Positions 866 through 7,856 of a stretch of 10,975 nucleotides of DNA are shown here, piece after piece. The notes beneath the pieces were generated by a model. That model did not search any database. It was given only the letters and a program-made list of their open reading frames with translations, and was not told the origin of the DNA. This DNA is from an uncultured archaeon (GTDB lineage: Archaea > Asgardarchaeota > Heimdallarchaeia > Heimdallarchaeales > Heimdallarchaeaceae): positions 1 to 10,975 of the forward strand of contig CAZHRF010000072.1 in the NCBI GenBank assembly GCA_964534625.1, read 5' to 3'. A program made the position numbers and the translations under genes. Each line of letters starts with the position of its first letter. Position 1 is the first letter of the stretch.

Positions 866-2113
866 TTAATCGGGGAACTTTATCCTTATATACACATCTG
901 GTTCTTCGCCATTCCGCTCTAGTCCAGTTACAAATAATGTTTCATAATTACGTATATTTAATTCTTGTAGAGTAGCATTCTTTTTTGCTTCTTGCATATT
1001 TTGTCTATCAATGATCCAAAAATTGGGTAGATATTCAGGATCAAAGGTATACCCTTCTTTCTTTATAAGAGGTAAGATCATATCTATTGTCGTGGTAGGA
1101 GTAACTTTTATTTCAATCATATCAGGCTTGAATGACCCACATAATTGACAGTTCTTATTTGGAGGTTTCTTAAACTGATAAAATTTACCAACTAAGCCAT
1201 TGTATATTAGATAATCTTCATTCATCGTGCCTAATTCTATACCTTTTTGATGGTGTAAAATTTTCACCGCTTCTTGTGATTGAATTGATGCCATAACTGC
1301 ATTAATAGTTATAATAGTAGGATCATGTTGATCAACCATTTTTACAGCCTCATCTATTGTAAATTCACTCTCTCCAGGAAAGTGTTCTTTTACTAGTTTA
1401 TTCGCATACTCTAATACCATCTCCATCTCATTTATTTCCGTTGTATCCGGTGGCCTATTAAATTTCGATTCAAAAAATAGTTGTCCTTTAAGTAAACAGT
1501 GACTTCTTTTTCTTGGTATTCCAACCAATGTACATGCAGCCAGCGTTTCTCTTTCTGGTTCAATTTGGGGATCACATTGTAAACAAGCATTTTTCCCGGG
1601 TAAATAGGTATATACATGCCCATAATATGTCTGTGTTCCTGCATCAATCAAAGGTTTTTGAAAATGTACTGCTCTCCTCATTAATTCATTTCTTGCTGCT
1701 ACTGAATCTAGTCCTGCAATTATCAAATCTGCTTTTGCATAAATTTCTGGATCAACATTTTCCAAAGGTTTGTAATGCCATTCATATTCGCTAAACGGGT
1801 TAATCTTCTTTAATGTCCTGGCTGCCACTTTAGCTTTTGGTTCTCCTTCTTCAGCATCATAAAATAATATTTGTCTATTAAGATTAGAATATTCCACAAA
1901 ATCAAGATCAATCAGATGAAGCTTACCTACCCCCGCCATAGCTAAATTTTTAGCTACTTCAACACCTAACCCCCCTACACCAGCTATAATAACAGTTGAT
2001 TGTTTTAGGGCTTGTTGACTCCACCCAGGTAATCGCAATTGTCTATCTAAACGTTTTCTCTCTTCCTTATCAAAAGTTTCATCAAAAAAATTTGATTGAT
2101 ACCCTTTACTCAT
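866..2113 (-). CDS. Ubiquitin-like activating enzyme E1 (ThiF adenylation domain, catalytic Cys insert, C-terminal ubiquitin-fold domain), UBA2/UBA3-like
   Basis: RLDRQLRL, GVGGLG nucleotide-binding loop, DLDFVEYSNLNRQILF, GLDS, PLIDAGT, two Zn CxxC pairs (C177/C180, C322/C325), catalytic Cys194 in ACTLVGIPRKRSHC (cf. UBA3 MCTIASMPRLPEHC), and an ~85-aa C-terminal extension consistent with a UFD. Confidence 0.92.
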   Translation of the reverse strand: MSKGYQSNFFDETFDKEERKRLDRQLRLPGWSQQALKQSTVIIAGVGGLGVEVAKNLAMAGVGKLHLIDLDFVEYSNLNRQILFYDAEEGEPKAKVAARTLKKINPFSEYEWHYKPLENVDPEIYAKADLIIAGLDSVAARNELMRRAVHFQKPLIDAGTQTYYGHVYTYLPGKNACLQCDPQIEPERETLAACTLVGIPRKRSHCLLKGQLFFESKFNRPPDTTEINEMEMVLEYANKLVKEHFPGESEFTIDEAVKMVDQHDPTIITINAVMASIQSQEAVKILHHQKGIELGTMNEDYLIYNGLVGKFYQFKKPPNKNCQLCGSFKPDMIEIKVTPTTTIDMILPLIKKEGYTFDPEYLPNFWIIDRQNMQEAKKNATLQELNIRNYETLFVTGLERNGEEPDVYIRIKFPD

Positions 2114-2225
2114 TTTTTCACGCTCTTTAAGATGTTAATATATATTTCAAATAGTTTTTTATTATGTTTCTTTCAACTTTTTAGAGGATCATCCAAAAAA
2201 AAGATGGAATCTTTTCCTGCCAGTT

Positions 2226-2255
2226 AAAAAAAAATAAAACTAAATAAAATAAAAA
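2226..2255 (-). terminator. Oligo-T tract downstream of the Ubl gene (putative archaeal terminator)
   Basis: The minus strand reads TTTTTATTTTATTTAGTTTTATTTTTTTTT starting about 10 nt after the Ubl stop codon. Confidence 0.45.
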
Positions 2256-2264
2256 GTGTTTTGT

Positions 2265-2630
2265 TTAACCTGCTGTTGAAACTGGTATCAACAGTACGGT
2301 ATCCCCATCTTCAACACCATAATCTTTCAAAGCATCATCAGGATCACATGTTCTCCCAGCATGACTCAGATGGAATTCTTCTGGAGGTAATCCAAATATT
2401 TGGCCAACAGTATATTTCAAATCTGCAATAGGTGCTTCTTCAGATACAACTAACTTTTCTTGTTTAGGGTTTGGACCAATTGTACTTTGGAAATACACAC
2501 TTATTTTCTTTCCTTTGGGTGTTTTGGCTGTTGCAGGCGTCTTAGATTTAATAGGTTCTTCATCTTCAAATTCTTCTTCATCAAAATCCAATTCTTCAAA
2601 TTTTTCCTCTTCTTCACTCATGTTTTTCAC
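2265..2630 (-). CDS. Ubiquitin-like modifier (beta-grasp fold) with acidic N-terminal extension; C-terminus ...LLIPVSTAG-stop
   Basis: The last 42 aa align without gaps to ubiquitin residues 35-76 (GLPPEEFHLSHAGRTCDPDDALKDYGVEDGDTVLLIPVSTAG vs [42 protein letters not shown]). The true start is probably ATG at 2621 (118 aa), with the GTG at 2630 being part of a GAAGTGA RBS. Confidence 0.9.
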   Translation of the reverse strand: MKNMSEEEEKFEELDFDEEEFEDEEPIKSKTPATAKTPKGKKISVYFQSTIGPNPKQEKLVVSEEAPIADLKYTVGQIFGLPPEEFHLSHAGRTCDPDDALKDYGVEDGDTVLLIPVSTAG

Positions 2631-2784
2631 TTCGTTTTGTTATGTCATAGTAAGGTTATCCGTTTATTCTAATAAAGCTTCTCCTTTAATCAGATAAAGC
2701 ACGTCAATGTCATCATAAGAGTTAAAATTGAATACATTTATCTAGTACCAGAATCATCTTTAACTAACCACATAATCAAAATGA

Positions 2785-3573
2785 ATGGTCGACTCTACTT
2801 TGGTGAACAGCTTGAGACGAAATAACAAAAAACAAAAAGAGAGGATAAAATCTAAAACACCAGATAAGAAAGAAATTAAACGTAAAGCAAAAATTTCTAA
2901 AAGTAAAATTCCTACAGATGGTGAAGAAATAATTCTTCCTCCGGCAAAAAAAAATGTTCATCCCGTGAATGATAAAATACCCAAACAATCTGTTTTAGAA
3001 CAAGAAAGAGAGAGGAATCAATCTTTAACAAAAACTAAAATGCCTAATAAACATAAAGTTCCAGGAAAACAGAAACATAAATATTTTCCAGAAAAGAAGA
3101 ATAAAAAAATACCTAAAGAACGTATAAAGGATAAAAAACCTAAGAAAGACACGTTGGCTAATGATAAAACAAATAGTTTGATTCCCCCTAGATCATCACC
3201 TAAGGATACACCAGACGCAATACCATCTAAATCACGAATCAAAAAAGTTTCTAGATTAAAGAATACAGCACTAAAAAGAGAAAGAAGACAAAGAGAGGAA
3301 CCAGAAAGATCAAAATTCAGGAAACTATTATCTTTATTGTCTAGACCATTGACTAGAAAAGACAAAGAAGAGGCTCTCCCAAATGATGATTCTGATCTTT
3401 TTACCTCTCCAGAACCTATAGAATCACAACCAGTACCAGATGAACCAAAAAGAACTGAACAAAAAGAACGTTCAACACCTGTGACAAAAACAATCAGAGA
3501 AGAAAAAAAGCCTAAAAGAGTAAAAACGCCTAAAAAGGTAAAAACGCCCAAAAAAGATAAAATACCAAAATAA
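2785..3573 (+). CDS. Hypothetical Lys/Arg/Pro-rich, probably disordered protein with C-terminal KTPKK repeats
   Basis: 789-nt open frame, basic low-complexity composition, in-frame 18-nt repeats, no recognisable globular domain; fills the gap between two minus-strand genes. Confidence 0.7.
   Translation: MVDSTLVNSLRRNNKKQKERIKSKTPDKKEIKRKAKISKSKIPTDGEEIILPPAKKNVHPVNDKIPKQSVLEQERERNQSLTKTKMPNKHKVPGKQKHKYFPEKKNKKIPKERIKDKKPKKDTLANDKTNSLIPPRSSPKDTPDAIPSKSRIKKVSRLKNTALKRERRQREEPERSKFRKLLSLLSRPLTRKDKEEALPNDDSDLFTSPEPIESQPVPDEPKRTEQKERSTPVTKTIREEKKPKRVKTPKKVKTPKKDKIPK
3502..3573 (+). repeat. Four degenerate 18-nt tandem repeats encoding EKKPKR-VKTPKK-VKTPKK-DKIPK*
   Basis: gaaaaaaagcctaaaaga / gtaaaaacgcctaaaaag / gtaaaaacgcccaaaaaa / gataaaataccaaaataa; the two central units differ only at synonymous positions. 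Confidence 0.8.
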
Positions 3574-3614
3574 TGGTTATGAATTCAAGGGAAAATTTAA
3601 TGGTTTTTCATTTT

Positions 3615-4202
3615 TCATACAAACAAGGCTATAATTCCGCTATATAAATACAATCCCCCAAATATTATTAGAAAGAGATTATTCAGATAAAGAAATGAAG
3701 TAAGGAAATATGCCAAAGGGATCATTATTGTGAGCATAAAAGCTGTAAATTTTGGAGGTAAACCACCTTCACTTGTACCTGTTAATCTTATGAATGGGTA
3801 ACGAATATAGCTCCTAAACAACAAATAATTGCTGAAGATGTAATAAGGAGTTATGAGTATATCTACCACATTAATTGAATAAGTAAGATCTATATTCTCC
3901 CCTTGCAACTGGCCTGTTATAAATACCATTGCTTCATTTATTTCAAATATGCTTTGAGCCAAAATTAAGATTAGAGGAATTAGGGGTAAAAAAACAACAT
4001 ATGCCACTTCATTGAAGGTTGCGCTGTGTCTAACATAATAAATACTTCTAAACATATAAAATAAAGAAATAAACGCATATAATGCTAAGAAAACAAACAT
4101 TTTTCCATTAAACGAATTCCCTTCTATAAAATAATAGATCGCTATTCCTACTAAGGAAAGAGAGATCAAAAAAGAAGCGGTACCATATAATTTTCTACCC
4201 AT
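3615..4202 (-). CDS. Multi-pass membrane protein (about 6 TM), apparent paralog of the adjacent E3's membrane domain
   Basis: Several long hydrophobic segments; GGAGATGA RBS; in-register identities with the N-terminal domain of 4291..5403. Confidence 0.8.
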   Translation of the reverse strand: MGRKLYGTASFLISLSLVGIAIYYFIEGNSFNGKMFVFLALYAFISLFYMFRSIYYVRHSATFNEVAYVVFLPLIPLILILAQSIFEINEAMVFITGQLQGENIDLTYSINVVDILITPYYIFSNYLLFRSYIRYPFIRLTGTSEGGLPPKFTAFMLTIMIPLAYFLTSFLYLNNLFLIIFGGLYLYSGIIALFV

Positions 4203-4290
4203 TAAAATTCATCTCCAGTATAAATTTATACATTATCTTATTAAATCTTGCACTAATATTTTTATGGTAACAATAAAAATACTTTTGCTC

Positions 4291-5403
4291 TTATCTAATT
4301 TTAGATATGACTTTCTCAACGTAAAATTTGGTGCTCATTCTTAGTTTGGGATGTTTGATATATGCAGCAGATATTTTTGTGTTGCATCTTGGACATAAAT
4401 GAGAATTTGCAAACCACATATTAAGCTCATCCTCATGTGCTGGATACTTACAATGAGGGCATAATATCACTCGTCTTTTATCATTCTTCTTAAAATCTTG
4501 ATAACAAATTATACACTTTAAATCGTCTTTTGTTAATTTTCCTTTTGGTCTAATATTGATTTTACGTGTTTTTCTTTTTGTTTTCGACCTAGTTCTTCTA
4601 GTACTATCCACTTCTATTCCAGGATCCCTGTCAGCTAGAGCATCACTTGACGAAGACCTAGCTGTTGAATCCCTACTTGATCTAGTCGAGACTGTTCGAT
4701 AGCCATTTGATGGTCTTGTGGAAACCGGTCTATGTCTTGATGAGCGCCTGTTAGAAGAGCGACTACCTGTCCTACTTTTTGTTGTTGATCTTCTTGATGT
4801 ACTAGCACTTTTTTTACGAACGGCTGGTATTATATAATGTATCAACATCTGACTGAAAAATATAATGATAAATAGTATCGCTGTTATATCATATACTGCA
4901 GTTAAAAACACATATCGTATCCCTAGTATTAAAGTTAAAAGCAAATGAACTAAAACGGGTAAGGCTTGTTTTCTGATTATTTTTCTATTTATTGCCATTG
5001 CTGCCCATTTTTTACTATGAAAATTTCTAAAGTGTATGGAGAGAATTAACAGAGGGACAACTAGACTAATAGAGATTGTATTTGTGATTATTCGTATATA
5101 AAAAAAAGGCAATTCAAGCGCCAATCCCAAATATAAGTTATCTTGTATTATAGGCGAAACATATGTGCCAAATACAAGAATAACGTAAGGTAAAACTATA
5201 AACTGTAAACTTGCTAGTATTGCATTATAGCTTCTATAATAACTACGTTCTAACAAAAATTTTAATCCTGCTATGATATAGATTGTAATGTATAAAACGA
5301 GTAAACTTGTTTCTATGGCTTTGTCTATCAAGAAGTACAATAAACTTACCATTAGACCTAAAATAGCTAAACTAAGATATGTTTTACTGTTATTTAGATC
5401 CAA
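4291..5403 (-). CDS. Membrane-anchored RING-type E3 ligase (about 6 TM, Ser/Arg-rich linker, C-terminal variant RING)
   Basis: aa 1-195 hydrophobic; aa 196-289 S/R/T/K-rich; CIIC-x14-CPHC-x4-HEDE-LNMW-x6-CPRC with the E2-contact Ile, Trp and Pro of RING ligases; TTG start; clustered with E2 and JAB genes. Confidence 0.82.
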   Translation of the reverse strand: MDLNNSKTYLSLAILGLMVSLLYFLIDKAIETSLLVLYITIYIIAGLKFLLERSYYRSYNAILASLQFIVLPYVILVFGTYVSPIIQDNLYLGLALELPFFYIRIITNTISISLVVPLLILSIHFRNFHSKKWAAMAINRKIIRKQALPVLVHLLLTLILGIRYVFLTAVYDITAILFIIIFFSQMLIHYIIPAVRKKSASTSRRSTTKSRTGSRSSNRRSSRHRPVSTRPSNGYRTVSTRSSRDSTARSSSSDALADRDPGIEVDSTRRTRSKTKRKTRKINIRPKGKLTKDDLKCIICYQDFKKNDKRRVILCPHCKYPAHEDELNMWFANSHLCPRCNTKISAAYIKHPKLRMSTKFYVEKVISKIR

Positions 5404-5454
5404 TGGTGATTACTCCGATTTTCATTATCTCTTGTAACTATTTTTTTAATCTGT

Positions 5455-6189
5455 CTATTTATTCATTATTAGCTGGATTGAATCATAAGCTGCTTCTGTA
5501 CTTAATCCTTCTACTTCAAAATCAATTGCATAATACGATTGTTTATCTTCAGCCACTCTAAAAATTTTAAACCCATACGAGTTTTCAGAGATCATTAAAG
5601 GATCAACTACCAAGGCTATAGATCGATTCCAAAAAGTTTGGTATCTTAAATGCGTTCTAATATCATCATCACTCAAAAACGGAGTGTACGAAGGATGTGA
5701 ATGAGCCCAACCTATAATAAACTGTTTATCTTTCATTTTTTCTACAATTTCAGTAAAGATTTTTTGATCAATAATTTCAACTTTTACAGCATCACCTTGT
5801 GTCACTGGCCAATAATCTCGAACAACTAGTTGTTCAATAGGCGTATCTTCATTTTTGATAAAACCTGTAAGTAGCCCTATTATCTCAACCCATTTTTTTT
5901 GAGGAATAGTCCTATTAGCATAAGATAAAGCGTGTTTTGATAGTTTTAGATATGCTTTTGGCTTGATTACTATCTCAGGTTTTTGTTCAATGGAAATAGT
6001 CTCTTCGGTAATGTCAGCATCAAACTCTTCATTATCTTCATCGTCTATGGGTATTTCGTCTTCCATTTCCATATCTTCAATATGTAATTTTTTTTCTATC
6101 GCTTGAACTTTTTTTAACAGCTCTCTATAAGTAATAGGGATGGTTTCTTTTTCCTCATCTTTCATTTTTTTCACCAACATATCTACCAA
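5455..6189 (-). CDS. MPN+/JAMM (JAB) metallo-isopeptidase, Rpn11/CSN5/AMSH-like, with acidic N-terminal extension
   Basis: Catalytic Glu in VEIIGLLTG; GWAHSHPSYTPFLSDDD fits HxH-x7-S-x2-D; ALVVDP. The start may instead be ATG 6180 or ATG 6165 (the latter is preceded by GGTGA-AAAAAA). Confidence 0.92.
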   Translation of the reverse strand: MVDMLVKKMKDEEKETIPITYRELLKKVQAIEKKLHIEDMEMEDEIPIDDEDNEEFDADITEETISIEQKPEIVIKPKAYLKLSKHALSYANRTIPQKKWVEIIGLLTGFIKNEDTPIEQLVVRDYWPVTQGDAVKVEIIDQKIFTEIVEKMKDKQFIIGWAHSHPSYTPFLSDDDIRTHLRYQTFWNRSIALVVDPLMISENSYGFKIFRVAEDKQSYYAIDFEVEGLSTEAAYDSIQLIMNK

Positions 6190-6704
6190 TATGATTTAGC
6201 GTATTTTTTGTTGATGGATTTTGCTTTCTTGACAAATTTTCGCTTATTATTCAAAAATTCGATAGCTGCTTTCTTATTAAAAACATCATTAGGATTGATA
6301 AAAGCACCATCAACATTGAACATAGCTAAAATCGAATATATGACGGTGTTAATATTTTTACTTGGTGACCATCCATCAGGTTTACCGATTAAATCATTAT
6401 CAACTAACGCAAGACAAATATTACGTTTTCCCGGATATTCCTTAGGATTAGGCCAGAAATTAGGATGCCATATAGGTGTATGCAATCTTACAAACGGAGG
6501 TTTATAGGGATAGTTTTTGCCAAACTTAATTTCTAGTTTATATTTGCCGCCCACATAAGGCGTCCCCCTCGGTCCTTTAAATCCTACTGCCAAATGTGTC
6601 ATAGTCTTTTTGCCTGTAGGAAAAGATTTTACTTGCTCAATTATTCCCTCTTTATGTAATTTTCTGAGGCTTTCATATTCTTTTATAATCCTTTGTTTTC
6701 TCAT
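6183..6704 (-). CDS. Ubiquitin-conjugating enzyme E2 (UBC fold)
   Basis: RIIKEY helix 1, GPRGTPYVGG, YPYKPPFV, IWHPN, catalytic Cys in NICL, WSP, and NPNDVFNKKAA. Confidence 0.95.
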   Translation of the reverse strand: MRKQRIIKEYESLRKLHKEGIIEQVKSFPTGKKTMTHLAVGFKGPRGTPYVGGKYKLEIKFGKNYPYKPPFVRLHTPIWHPNFWPNPKEYPGKRNICLALVDNDLIGKPDGWSPSKNINTVIYSILAMFNVDGAFINPNDVFNKKAAIEFLNNKRKFVKKAKSINKKYAKSYW

Positions 6705-6812: not shown

Positions 6813-7856
6813 TTACGAGTCAAGGTAGACAATTTCATATGAAGCTTTGTATAATCTATTCATTATAGCTAATCCTTCTTTTTCCTCTTCCACAGATTCA
6901 ACATAAGCCATCGTACAGTCTTCGTCATCCAATTTACGTAGACATTCGAAAAGATTCTTTTGGATTTCTTTTTTATCTTCTCCAACTAAGATAACCGATT
7001 CTGCTCTTTTATGTACATGTTCGTTATGTAAACACAAAACTGCTATTTTTGCTTTATCTAATCGAATAATCTCTCGGTTGATAAACGTTTCTTGTGTAGC
7101 CTTATCACCATGTACCAATATTAAGCGTGTATTGGGTGAATAATGTTTATACTTTAACCCAGGACTTGTAGGACTTGTTCTTATTTTAGGATCAACACTT
7201 TTTAGGATGGTTATATTTGGTAGATATTGTTTAAGAGTTTCATATGTAATGCCTCCTGGTCTTAAAATTGTTGGAGGGTCAATTACGATATTTAATACAG
7301 TTGATTCGACTCCAATCTTTGTTTTTCCTCCATCTAAAATGAGCGGGATTTTTCCTTGAAAATCTTCATAGACTCTTTTTGCATTTGTGGCACTTGGTTT
7401 TCCAGAAAGATTAGCACTTGGGGCAGCAATTGGTGTTTGTGCTTCTTCAATTAGTTTCAAAGCTATAGGATTATTAGGAATACGTATTGCAACAGTATTT
7501 AGCCCACCTGTTGTAATTGTAGGTACTTTTTCACTTTTTTTAAAAAGGAGCGTCAATGGACCAGGCCACAAAGCTGTCATCAACTGTTTATATTCTTCAG
7601 GAAAGTAGCTAACTAACGGATATATCTGTTTGATATTACTTACATGCAAAATTAATGGATTGTCACTTGGTCTTCCTTTTACTGCAAAAATCTTTTTTAC
7701 AGCATGAGGATTCAACGCATCAGCTCCCAGACCATAGACTGTTTCTGTTGGGAAAGCAACAACATCCCCCGATTTGATTATTTTGGCTGCTTGTTGGATT
7801 TTGTTCTTATCGTACGAATGTTTTAAATCCTCAATTATTGTCTGCAAATTGTTCAT
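6813..7856 (-). CDS. sua5: Threonylcarbamoyl-AMP synthase (YrdC plus SUA5 domains), t6A tRNA modification
   Basis: AFPTETVYGLGADA, KGRPSDNPLI, WPGPLT, APSANLSGKPS, LRPG, linker SPGLKYKHYSP, C-terminal AIMNRLYKA. Confidence 0.96.
   Translation of the reverse strand: MNNLQTIIEDLKHSYDKNKIQQAAKIIKSGDVVAFPTETVYGLGADALNPHAVKKIFAVKGRPSDNPLILHVSNIKQIYPLVSYFPEEYKQLMTALWPGPLTLLFKKSEKVPTITTGGLNTVAIRIPNNPIALKLIEEAQTPIAAPSANLSGKPSATNAKRVYEDFQGKIPLILDGGKTKIGVESTVLNIVIDPPTILRPGGITYETLKQYLPNITILKSVDPKIRTSPTSPGLKYKHYSPNTRLILVHGDKATQETFINREIIRLDKAKIAVLCLHNEHVHKRAESVILVGEDKKEIQKNLFECLRKLDDEDCTMAYVESVEEEKEGLAIMNRLYKASYEIVYLDS

What the first reader, a model, noticed from the sequence alone, without database searches (positions are those of the whole stretch)
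2265..2390. Modifier ends in Ala-Gly-stop and lacks ubiquitin's I44, K48 and K63 equivalents
Seen: GCA GGT TAA, so no di-Gly and no propeptide. By ungapped alignment to ubiquitin: I44->S, K48->R, K63->D, H68->L, R72->V, R74->T, G75->A. Known: single-Gly termini occur in UFM1 (VG) and Atg8 (FG); the I44 patch and K48 mediate proteasomal recognition. Inference: a distinct Ubl class, made in mature form, probably non-degradative or read by different receptors. It would be invisible to standard K-GG enrichment and leave a long tryptic remnant.
Basis: partly seen in the sequence, partly recalled or inferred. Interest (0 to 1): 0.78.

Follow-up and report, generated by a model that had tools for sequence, protein, structure and literature searches.

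The report
Asgard ubiquitin-like tag ending Ala-Gly
This gene encodes a real ubiquitin-like protein tag of a Heimdall-group Asgard archaeon, from a large family that always ends in Ala-Gly instead of ubiquitin's Gly-Gly, sits beside its own activating, conjugating, ligating and removing enzymes, and coexists with an ordinary Gly-Gly ubiquitin elsewhere in the same genome.

Summary
The 118-aa ORF at 2265-2621 (minus strand) ends GCA GGT TAA (…LLIPVSTAG-stop). All seven substitutions relative to ubiquitin hold in a HMMER alignment.

It is not a private mutation. The motif IPxSxAG is present in 119 of 120 homologues (the other is truncated) and in about 30 more distant representatives. None ends in GG.

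About 40% of homologues stop at AG. Two are head-to-tail arrays of two or three units, so AG marks a processing site.

The fold is ubiquitin-type (pLDDT above 90; best match is Caldiarchaeum ubiquitin). A conserved acidic/KTP N-terminal arm of about 40 aa is also a family hallmark.

The gene lies in a conserved cluster with:
- a UBA3-like E1;
- an E2;
- a membrane RING protein;
- an Rpn11-like JAB.

The same genome has a separate 77-aa GG ubiquitin with its own E1.

A profile of the family matched 200 of 400 Asgard genomes. No paper I could search mentions the Ala-Gly end. This scan has already met the family on other DNA (e1-5454201).

"Distinct Ubl class" is supported. "Made mature" is true here but is not a family trait. 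"Non-degradative" is untested.

The parts
2265..2621 (-). Ubl gene (118 aa plus stop), AG-type ubiquitin-like modifier
   Evidence: ORF and translation. PF00240 at 32.3 bits against a cut-off of 25.4. 138 homologues.
2265..2282 (-). C-terminal tail V114-S-T-A-G118 plus TAA stop. This is the Ala-Gly end, with no propeptide.
   Evidence: S115, A117 and G118 are present in 119/120 homologues. Residues 112-118 touch the E1 in the predicted complex.
2283..2507 (-). Ubiquitin-type beta-grasp core (residues 39-113). It includes S86 (2364-2366), R90 (2352-2354) and D105 (2307-2309).
   Evidence: AF2 block pLDDT is 92-96 and the secondary structure is bbabbab. Foldseek top hit is 6fno_D, Caldiarchaeum Ub, followed by ubiquitin.
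2508..2621 (-). N-terminal arm (residues 1-38): an acidic/aromatic stretch followed by I-K-S-K-T-P-A...K-T-P-x-G-K-K. Predicted disordered.
   Evidence: pLDDT 45-66. K27, P29, K33 and P35 are conserved in at least 106/120 homologues. Median arm length is 40 aa.
866..2113 (-). Dedicated E1 (415 aa). It has a ThiF adenylation domain, catalytic Cys194, a Zn site at C177/C180/C322/C325 and a C-terminal extension.
   Evidence: PF00899 at 1e-55. Best solved relative is UBA3, 3.8e-35. C194 aligns with UBA3 Cys216. These residues are invariant in 41 orthologues.
6183..6704 (-). E2 (173 aa) with HPN and a downstream Cys
   Evidence: PF00179 at 7.9e-27. Best solved relatives are UBE2R2, an unnamed 'ubiquitin carrier protein' (2r0j) and UBE2A, at about 1e-15.
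5455..6189 (-). JAB/MPN metalloprotease (244 aa) with an HSHPxxxxxxSxxD motif
   Evidence: PF01398 at 2.8e-13. Best solved relative is Caldiarchaeum Rpn11-like 6fju, 2e-13.
4291..5403 (-). Multi-pass membrane protein with a C-terminal RING finger (putative E3)
   Evidence: Weak zf-RING_2 match, 3e-4, below the cut-off. A gene of 368-400 aa occupies the same position in L003, L004 and L005.
3615..4202 (-). 195-aa membrane protein with no Pfam match, lying inside the cluster
Evidence: I did not test this.

Best explanation
The gene encodes a conjugatable ubiquitin-like modifier of an Asgard-wide family whose reactive end is Ala-Gly.

Proposed mechanism:
1. Gly118 is already exposed in this genome.
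2. The neighbouring UBA3-like E1 adenylates Gly118 and takes it onto Cys194.
3. It passes to the cluster's E2.
4. The membrane RING protein directs ligation to targets at or near the membrane.
5. The Rpn11-like JAB removes the tag. In lineages where the gene carries a cap or is a tandem array, the JAB also cuts after Ala-Gly to mature it.

The uncharged tail (P-V-S-T-A-G) and the Ser/His/Pro surface replace ubiquitin's basic tail and Ile44 patch. These differences probably keep this pathway separate from the Gly-Gly ubiquitin (the ESCRT-linked type) that the same cell also makes.

Shown: sequence, family conservation, fold, gene neighbourhood, and coexistence with a GG ubiquitin.

Inferred: adenylation, thioester transfer, targets, JAB specificity and insulation between the two pathways.
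For: - Sequence: the AG-stop end and all listed substitutions are confirmed.
- Conservation: IPxSxAG occurs in 119/120 homologues at 46-100% identity and in about 30 further representatives from a 1.8-billion-protein scan. None has GG.
- Processing site: 49/120 end at AG and the others have short caps. P0121 (three units) and P0122 (two units) are head-to-tail arrays. Each unit ends in AG, the next begins directly after it, and a 2-residue cap follows the last unit, as in polyubiquitin.
- Fold: AF2 pLDDT is above 90 for residues 41-113, and Foldseek's top hits are Caldiarchaeum Ub and ubiquitin.
- Enzymes: the E1 has a catalytic Cys aligned to UBA3 Cys216. The JAB is closest to CsRpn11. The E2 is canonical.
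- Synteny: the order Ubl-E1-E2-JAB-368/400-aa gene is kept in relatives of 54-57% identity, one of them named Helarchaeota by NCBI.
- Second system: the same genome has a 77-aa ubiquitin ending KGG-stop plus a second E1 that is 41% identical. It also has further E2 and JAB genes.
- Distribution: 76/81 class genomes have the GG type. The AG profile matched 200/400 phylum genomes.
- Predicted E1-Ubl complex: ipSAE 0.69 against a best control of 0.00. That mark was reached by 58 of 80 solved complexes and 2 of 110 mismatched pairs. Runs agree in at least 95% of contacts and partner pLDDT is at least 89. The tail 112-118 and residues 47-52/84-94 lie on the E1's Gly-rich loop 45-50 and on 158-166/181-187. 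E1-Ubl complexes are solved, so this pass may reflect likeness only.
- Precedent: bacterial BilA is cleaved at Gly97 by its JAB and leaves an Ala-Gly remnant on targets (10.1101/2023.09.26.559546).
- NEDD8 parallel: the NEDD8 E1 prefers aliphatic residues and rejects basic ones at position 72, which is V/A here (PMC3731359).
Against: - There is no biochemical or proteomic evidence for any step.
- In eukaryotic cascades Gly75 is strongly preferred, and changing it blocks later transfer steps (PMC3731359). Use of Ala therefore requires adapted enzymes, which is assumed and not shown.
- The tandem arrays lie on contigs of 1.2 kb, one at about 1.5x coverage.
- The RING match is below Pfam's cut-off.
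- Insulation from the GG ubiquitin is inferred only from sequence differences.
- Two closed genomes of the same family have the GG type but gave no AG match, so the system is dispensable.
Confidence: 0.78

Rival explanations
1. One shared machinery. The cluster's E2, RING and JAB (and perhaps its E1) serve both the AG protein and the GG ubiquitin. The Ala-Gly end would then be a tolerated variant, not an insulating feature.
For: Eukaryotic E1s tolerate some residue-75 changes.
Against: - The genome has other E2 and JAB genes outside both clusters.
- There are two distinct E1s, only 41% identical.
- The tails differ at every position from 71 to 75.
- Ala is invariant across at least 150 sequences, which argues for selection on that residue.
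- Twelve of twelve family-f7 genomes gave no AG match, and 11 of the 12 f7 genomes searched have the GG type.
Confidence: 0.12
2. A Bil-like antiviral conjugation system. The Ubl would be attached to viral proteins, as with bacterial BilABCD, whose Ubl also ends in Ala-Gly.
For: It shares the parts list (Ubl, E1, E2, JAB) and the Ala-Gly end with E. aridi BilA. Family f20 genomes carry 3-6 matches each.
Against: - PADLOC gives only weak generic E1-E2, JAB and E2 hits, and nothing for the Ubl or RING protein.
- The enzymes are closest to eukaryotic UBA3 and Rpn11 and to Caldiarchaeum.
- The cluster is syntenic and highly conserved across Asgard classes, beside housekeeping genes such as Sua5. 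That is unlike a defence island.
Confidence: 0.06
3. A non-conjugated beta-grasp protein, for example a MoaD/ThiS/Urm1-type sulfur carrier, or a Ubl domain protein that is never attached to targets.
For: The E1 belongs to the ThiF/MoeB superfamily. Some tandem units give faint ThiS matches.
Against: - The best Pfam match is ubiquitin, not ThiS or MoaD.
- The E1 has a UBA3-like catalytic-Cys insert, and the only Pfam match it gave was ThiF.
- E2, RING and JAB genes are co-conserved with it.
- A separate 257-aa ThiF/MoeB-type gene exists elsewhere in the genome.
Confidence: 0.03
4. A sequencing error or private mutation of a Gly-Gly ubiquitin.
For: None found.
Against: Ala-Gly is found in 119/120 homologues from many independent assemblies, and in the matches across 200 genomes.
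Confidence: 0.01

Closest known systems
Caldiarchaeum subterraneum ubiquitin operon (CsUb, E1, E2, small RING protein, CsRpn11; PMC5654768, PMC6043591)
   Same: It has a ubiquitin-type beta-grasp; CsUb is the top structural match. It has a compact E1/E2/RING/JAB gene set, and its JAB is closest to CsRpn11. Relatives of this Ubl carry C-terminal caps, as pro-CsUb does.
   Different: - CsUb ends Gly-Gly and always has a 9-residue propeptide. This protein ends Ala-Gly with no propeptide.
- This protein has a conserved 40-aa N-terminal arm.
- The RING here sits on a multi-pass membrane protein, not a small soluble protein.
- Sequence similarity to CsUb is weak (E about 0.002).
Asgard Gly-Gly ubiquitin of the Ub-ESCRT cluster (Hatano et al. 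2022, PMC9192718)
   Same: Same organismal group and same fold. Both lie next to a ThiF-type E1.
   Different: It is a separate gene in the same genome: 77 aa, ending KGG. It is 30% identical over 57 residues and scores higher on PF00240 (48.4 against 32.4 bits). The published Heimdall ubiquitin keeps a hydrophobic residue at the Ile44 position, and that residue binds the UEV domain. Here the position is an invariant Ser.
NEDD8 and its E1 subunit UBA3
   Same: The cluster's E1 is most similar to UBA3 (3.8e-35). Position 72 is aliphatic (V or A in 113/120). This is the class of residue that the NEDD8 E1 selects and the ubiquitin E1 rejects.
   Different: NEDD8 ends Gly-Gly, keeps Ile44, and has no N-terminal arm. 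By alignment, the pocket residues differ: H166/Y168/E185 here against N188/R190/Y207 in UBA3. I did not look for an APPBP1 partner or a cullin target.
Bacterial BilA (type II BilABCD, Ensifer aridi)
   Same: It is a single beta-grasp Ubl whose reactive end is Ala-Gly. The end is exposed by a JAB protease, and the protein is conjugated by an E1 and E2. This is direct precedent that Ala-Gly can be used.
   Different: It is a bacterial defence system with no RING E3. The window's enzymes match eukaryotic and Caldiarchaeum proteins, not defence models. No sequence relationship to BilA was tested here.
UFM1 and Atg8 (single-Gly modifiers)
   Same: Only the single terminal Gly.
   Different: No Pfam hit to the UFM1 or Atg8 families. 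The E1 is far closer to UBA3 than to UBA5 or ATG7 (3.8e-35 against 3.7e-14 and 1e-8). The E2 is a canonical HPN-Cys UBC. UFM1 is absent from the top 50 fold matches.

Membership tests
Ubiquitin family (Pfam PF00240; type I conjugatable Ubl) | Profile match above the curated cut-off | tested here: met
   32.3 bits against a cut-off of 25.4, over residues 57-111
Ubiquitin family (Pfam PF00240; type I conjugatable Ubl) | Beta-grasp fold | tested here: met
   AF2 pLDDT 92-96 for the core. Foldseek probability 1.00 to CsUb and ubiquitin, with target TM-score 0.80-0.92.
Ubiquitin family (Pfam PF00240; type I conjugatable Ubl) | C-terminal Gly-Gly | tested here: not met
   Ala-Gly here and in 119/120 homologues
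Ubiquitin family (Pfam PF00240; type I conjugatable Ubl) | Terminal Gly free, or freed by processing | tested here: met
   The stop codon follows G118. Capped and tandem relatives break at the same point.
Ubiquitin family (Pfam PF00240; type I conjugatable Ubl) | Covalent attachment to target lysines through an E1-E2-E3 cascade | not testable with these tools
   Only gene neighbourhood and a predicted E1 complex (0.69 against a control of 0.00)
Caldiarchaeum-type archaeal ubiquitin operon | Ub, E1, E2, RING and Rpn11-like JAB encoded together | tested here: met
   All five lie within 866-6704 on one strand. The RING match is weak.
Caldiarchaeum-type archaeal ubiquitin operon | Gly-Gly pro-ubiquitin with a propeptide | tested here: not met
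   Ala-Gly followed by a stop. CsUb has GG plus 9 residues.
Caldiarchaeum-type archaeal ubiquitin operon | Small soluble RING finger protein | tested here: not met
   The RING lies at residues 296-341 of a 370-aa protein. Its long hydrophobic N-terminal part reads as multi-pass membrane.
NEDD8 | Non-basic small or aliphatic residue at position 72 | tested here: met
   V114. The family has V 79, A 34, H 5.
NEDD8 | Gly-Gly end and Ile44 patch | tested here: not met
   A117 and S86
NEDD8 | Heterodimeric E1 (APPBP1-UBA3) and a cullin target | not tested
   Not searched for
UFM1 | UFM1 fold family with a UBA5-type E1 and a UFC1-type E2 | tested here: not met
   No UFM1 Pfam hit. UBA5 is a far weaker match than UBA3. 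The E2 is UQ_con.
Bacterial Bil system | Match to defence-system models for Ubl, E1, E2 and JAB | tested here: inconclusive
   PADLOC 2.0 gives only generic E1-E2 hits (best 6.8e-18), weak JAB hits and one weak E2 hit. It gives none for the Ubl. The library may lack Bil models.

The most novel reading that the evidence does not exclude
Asgard archaea run two insulated ubiquitin-type pathways. One uses a Gly-Gly ubiquitin tied to ESCRT. The other uses an Ala-Gly modifier with its own UBA3-like E1, E2, membrane RING ligase and JAB, and its genes can even occur as polyubiquitin-like arrays. On this reading, the split of ubiquitin-like pathways by tail chemistry, which eukaryotes show in ubiquitin versus NEDD8, predates eukaryotes.
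Probability: 0.3. Interest if true: 0.75.

Novelty: new variant of a known kind. Interest (0 to 1): 0.58.

Why it matters
Archaeal ubiquitin systems are studied as forerunners of the eukaryotic one. The published work concerns Gly-Gly ubiquitins (Caldiarchaeum and the Asgard Ub-ESCRT cluster).

A second, widespread Asgard modifier with an invariant Ala-Gly end would show that pathway diversification and insulation began before eukaryotes. Its other features are its own complete enzyme set, a membrane-bound ligase and a conserved N-terminal arm.

There is also a practical consequence. Anti-K-GG enrichment and GG-remnant searches would miss its conjugates, so Asgard proteomics needs a custom remnant. 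One option is an engineered Lys or Arg near the end, as was done for BilA.

Tried and rejected
- PADLOC scan for a Bil or other defence assignment gave only generic weak hits.
- Six usable literature searches, and reading of Hatano 2022, Hennell James 2017, Fuchs 2018, Makarova 2024 and a 2024 review, found no mention of an Ala-Gly Asgard Ubl. Absence from this library is not proof that it is unpublished.
- Spang et al. 2015 could not be read.
- Context of the tandem-array genes could not be obtained. All contigs are 1.2 kb or shorter, so no neighbours can be seen.
- I checked a suspected tandem array in genome G229. It turned out to be two separate adjacent genes, one ending at AG and one ending AG-YLV.
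- I considered co-variation between tail position 114 (V/A/H) and the E1 pocket and dropped it. The aligned pocket residues H166 and Y168 are invariant in 41 E1s.
- I did not attempt a tree placing the family relative to ubiquitin, NEDD8 and SUMO. The domain is short and no reference sequences were available by reference.

Full report
**Observation.** On the minus strand, window 2273..2265 reads GCA GGT TAA. The ORF 2265-2621(-) gives a 118-aa protein ending LLIPVSTAG-stop. HMMER aligns residues 60-112 to ubiquitin 18-70 without a gap. With that offset of 42, G118 falls on ubiquitin G76.

**Is it private or an error?** No. A word-indexed search found 138 relatives, of which 120 were listed, at 46-100% identity.
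- 119 of the 120 contain IP-x-S-x-A-G. The exception is a truncated entry.
- Column counts show S86, G89, Y101, G106, D107, I112 and P113 in all 120. S115, A117 and G118 are in 119/120.
- The loop T47-x-G49-P50 is also in all 120.
- Positions 90 and 105 are never Lys. K56 and K69 (the K27 equivalent) are invariant.
- A profile search of 1.8 billion cluster representatives recovered about 30 more distant members. All have x-A-G at this place and none has GG.

**Processing.**
- 49 of 120 homologues stop at AG, as this gene does.
- The others continue for 1-12 residues (K, AF, ARR, RGY, ATRTRKPLLVKR and others).
- In one Loki-type genome two paralogues sit side by side upstream of the E1. One ends at AG and the other ends AG-YLV.
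- Two proteins are head-to-tail arrays: P0121 has three units and P0122 has two.
- In both arrays every unit carries the N-terminal arm and the core and ends in AG. The next unit starts immediately, and two extra residues cap the last unit. This is the layout of eukaryotic polyubiquitin genes and marks AG as the maturation site.
- Caveat: these arrays lie on contigs of about 1.2 kb, one of them at low coverage.

**Fold and the arm.**
- With a 70-sequence alignment, AlphaFold gives block pLDDT of 92-96 for the core and a ubiquitin-like order of strands and helices. Residues 1-38 are disordered.
- Foldseek ranks Caldiarchaeum ubiquitin first and then many ubiquitin chains. SUMO1 and NEDD8 are lower, and UFM1 is not in the top 50.
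- The arm is nevertheless conserved. It is an acidic stretch with spaced aromatic residues followed by I-K-S-K-T-P-A…K-T-P-x-G-K-K. K27, P29, K33 and P35 are each present in at least 106 of 120 homologues.
- The function of the arm is unknown.

**Neighbourhood.** All on the minus strand:
- E1 (866-2113; ThiF, 1e-55);
- the Ubl;
- a 195-aa membrane protein;
- a 370-aa membrane protein with a C-terminal RING (weak match, 3e-4);
- a JAB (2.8e-13);
- an E2 (7.9e-27).

The E1's best solved relative is UBA3, the NEDD8 E1 subunit (3.8e-35). UBA2 and UBA1 follow. UBA5, Uba4 and ATG7 are far weaker.

In that alignment C194 matches the UBA3 residue that PMC3731359 names as the catalytic Cys216. C194 and the four Zn-site cysteines are invariant in 41 orthologues.

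The JAB is closest to the Caldiarchaeum Rpn11-like protease (2e-13). The E2 is a canonical UBC.

The order Ubl-E1-E2-JAB-368/400-aa gene is kept in relatives that are only 54-57% identical. One comes from a marine-sediment metagenome and one is named Helarchaeota by NCBI.

**A second ubiquitin in the same genome.**
- Contig C36 encodes a 77-aa ubiquitin ending KGG-stop. It is followed by a 338-aa E1 and a Cys-less E2 fold.
- That ubiquitin scores higher on PF00240 than the window protein (48.4 against 32.4 bits) and is 30% identical to it over 57 residues.
- The two E1s are 41% identical in the adenylation domain. The window's E1 has the longer Cys-domain insert.
- The genome also has further E2, JAB and ThiF genes.
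- 76 of 81 sampled genomes of the class have the GG type.
- The AG profile matched 200 of 400 genomes of the phylum at E <= 1e-5. Six of these were only marginal (E about 1e-6 to 1e-8). By family the tallies were f1 24/30, f4 9/12, f5 19/22 and f20 120/135, often with 3-6 matches per genome in f20.
- Family f7 (0 of 12) and two closed genomes of family f1 gave no AG match but do have the GG type. The AG system is therefore a widespread but dispensable second system.

**Predicted E1-Ubl complex.** Using my own alignments:
- ipSAE was 0.69 and the best of three controls was 0.00.
- The mark was reached by 58 of 80 solved complexes and 2 of 110 mismatched pairs.
- The runs share at least 95% of contacts, and partner pLDDT is at least 89.
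- Tail residues 112-118 and surface residues 47-52 and 81-94 (including H84 and S86) contact the E1's Gly-rich loop 45-50 and its segments 134-138, 158-166, 181-187 and 301-317.
- E1-Ubl complexes are solved, so the pass may come from likeness. It shows a canonical pose, not binding.
- The family's invariant surface residues coincide with this interface. That offers an alternative reason for their conservation.

**Comparison with known systems.**
- Ala-Gly as a reactive end has a precedent. E. aridi BilA is cut at Gly97 by its JAB and leaves an Ala-Gly remnant on targets.
- In eukaryotic cascades the NEDD8 E1 selects aliphatic residues and rejects basic ones at position 72. Both the ubiquitin and NEDD8 E1s strongly prefer Gly75, and residue-75 changes block later transfer steps.
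- The family's V/A at position 72 and Ala at position 75 are therefore plausible specificity determinants. This is inference.
- The studied Asgard and Caldiarchaeum ubiquitins are of the Gly-Gly type.
- No paper I could search mentions an Ala-Gly Asgard Ubl.
- This scan has met the same family on other genomes. One follow-up (e1-5454201) reached the same family-level conclusion.

**Verdict.**
- This is a real, strongly conserved Asgard ubiquitin-like modifier family with an Ala-Gly end and its own cascade. It runs in parallel with a Gly-Gly ubiquitin.
- It is a new variant of a known kind of system.
- The mechanism beyond the sequence level is inferred.

Noticed in passing
P0121 (locus L006 59-1177) and P0122 (locus L014 205-957): Polyubiquitin-like head-to-tail arrays of three and two complete AG-type units. 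Each unit has its own N-terminal arm, and a 2-residue cap follows the last AG. Both lie on short metagenome contigs.
   Followed up: partly
P0194 (L015 1100-2794), P0231, P0164: AG-type Ubl domains fused to the C-terminus of larger proteins. These are a HerA/DUF87-like ATPase (564 aa), a CDC48_N plus VWA protein (570 aa), and proteins of about 300 aa (one with a faint Roadblock match). All end in or just after x-A-G.
   Followed up: partly
window 2508-2621 (-): The disordered N-terminal arm is conserved across the family. It has an acidic run with F-x-x-L/F spacing, then two K-T-P motifs with near-invariant K27, P29, K33 and P35. Its function is unknown; it could hold chain-building lysines or a binding motif.
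   Followed up: partly
L017 943-1737 (-): In a Loki-type genome, a 264-aa membrane protein lies between two AG-Ubl genes. It has a C-terminal Ubl-like domain that lacks the AG end (…LIPSRKEKN), so it is a non-conjugatable relative.
   Followed up: no
window 2785-3573 (+): A 262-aa Lys/Pro-rich low-complexity ORF with no Pfam match, transcribed divergently from the Ubl gene. It may or may not be a real gene.
   Followed up: no
G000 contig C94 7-645 and 801-1091: A ThiF-type gene directly followed by a JAB gene elsewhere in the genome. This may be a third, SAMP-like, modifier system.
   Followed up: no
window 6813-7856 (-): A Sua5/TsaC threonylcarbamoyl-AMP synthase lies directly beside the E2, so a housekeeping gene flanks the cluster.
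   Followed up: no
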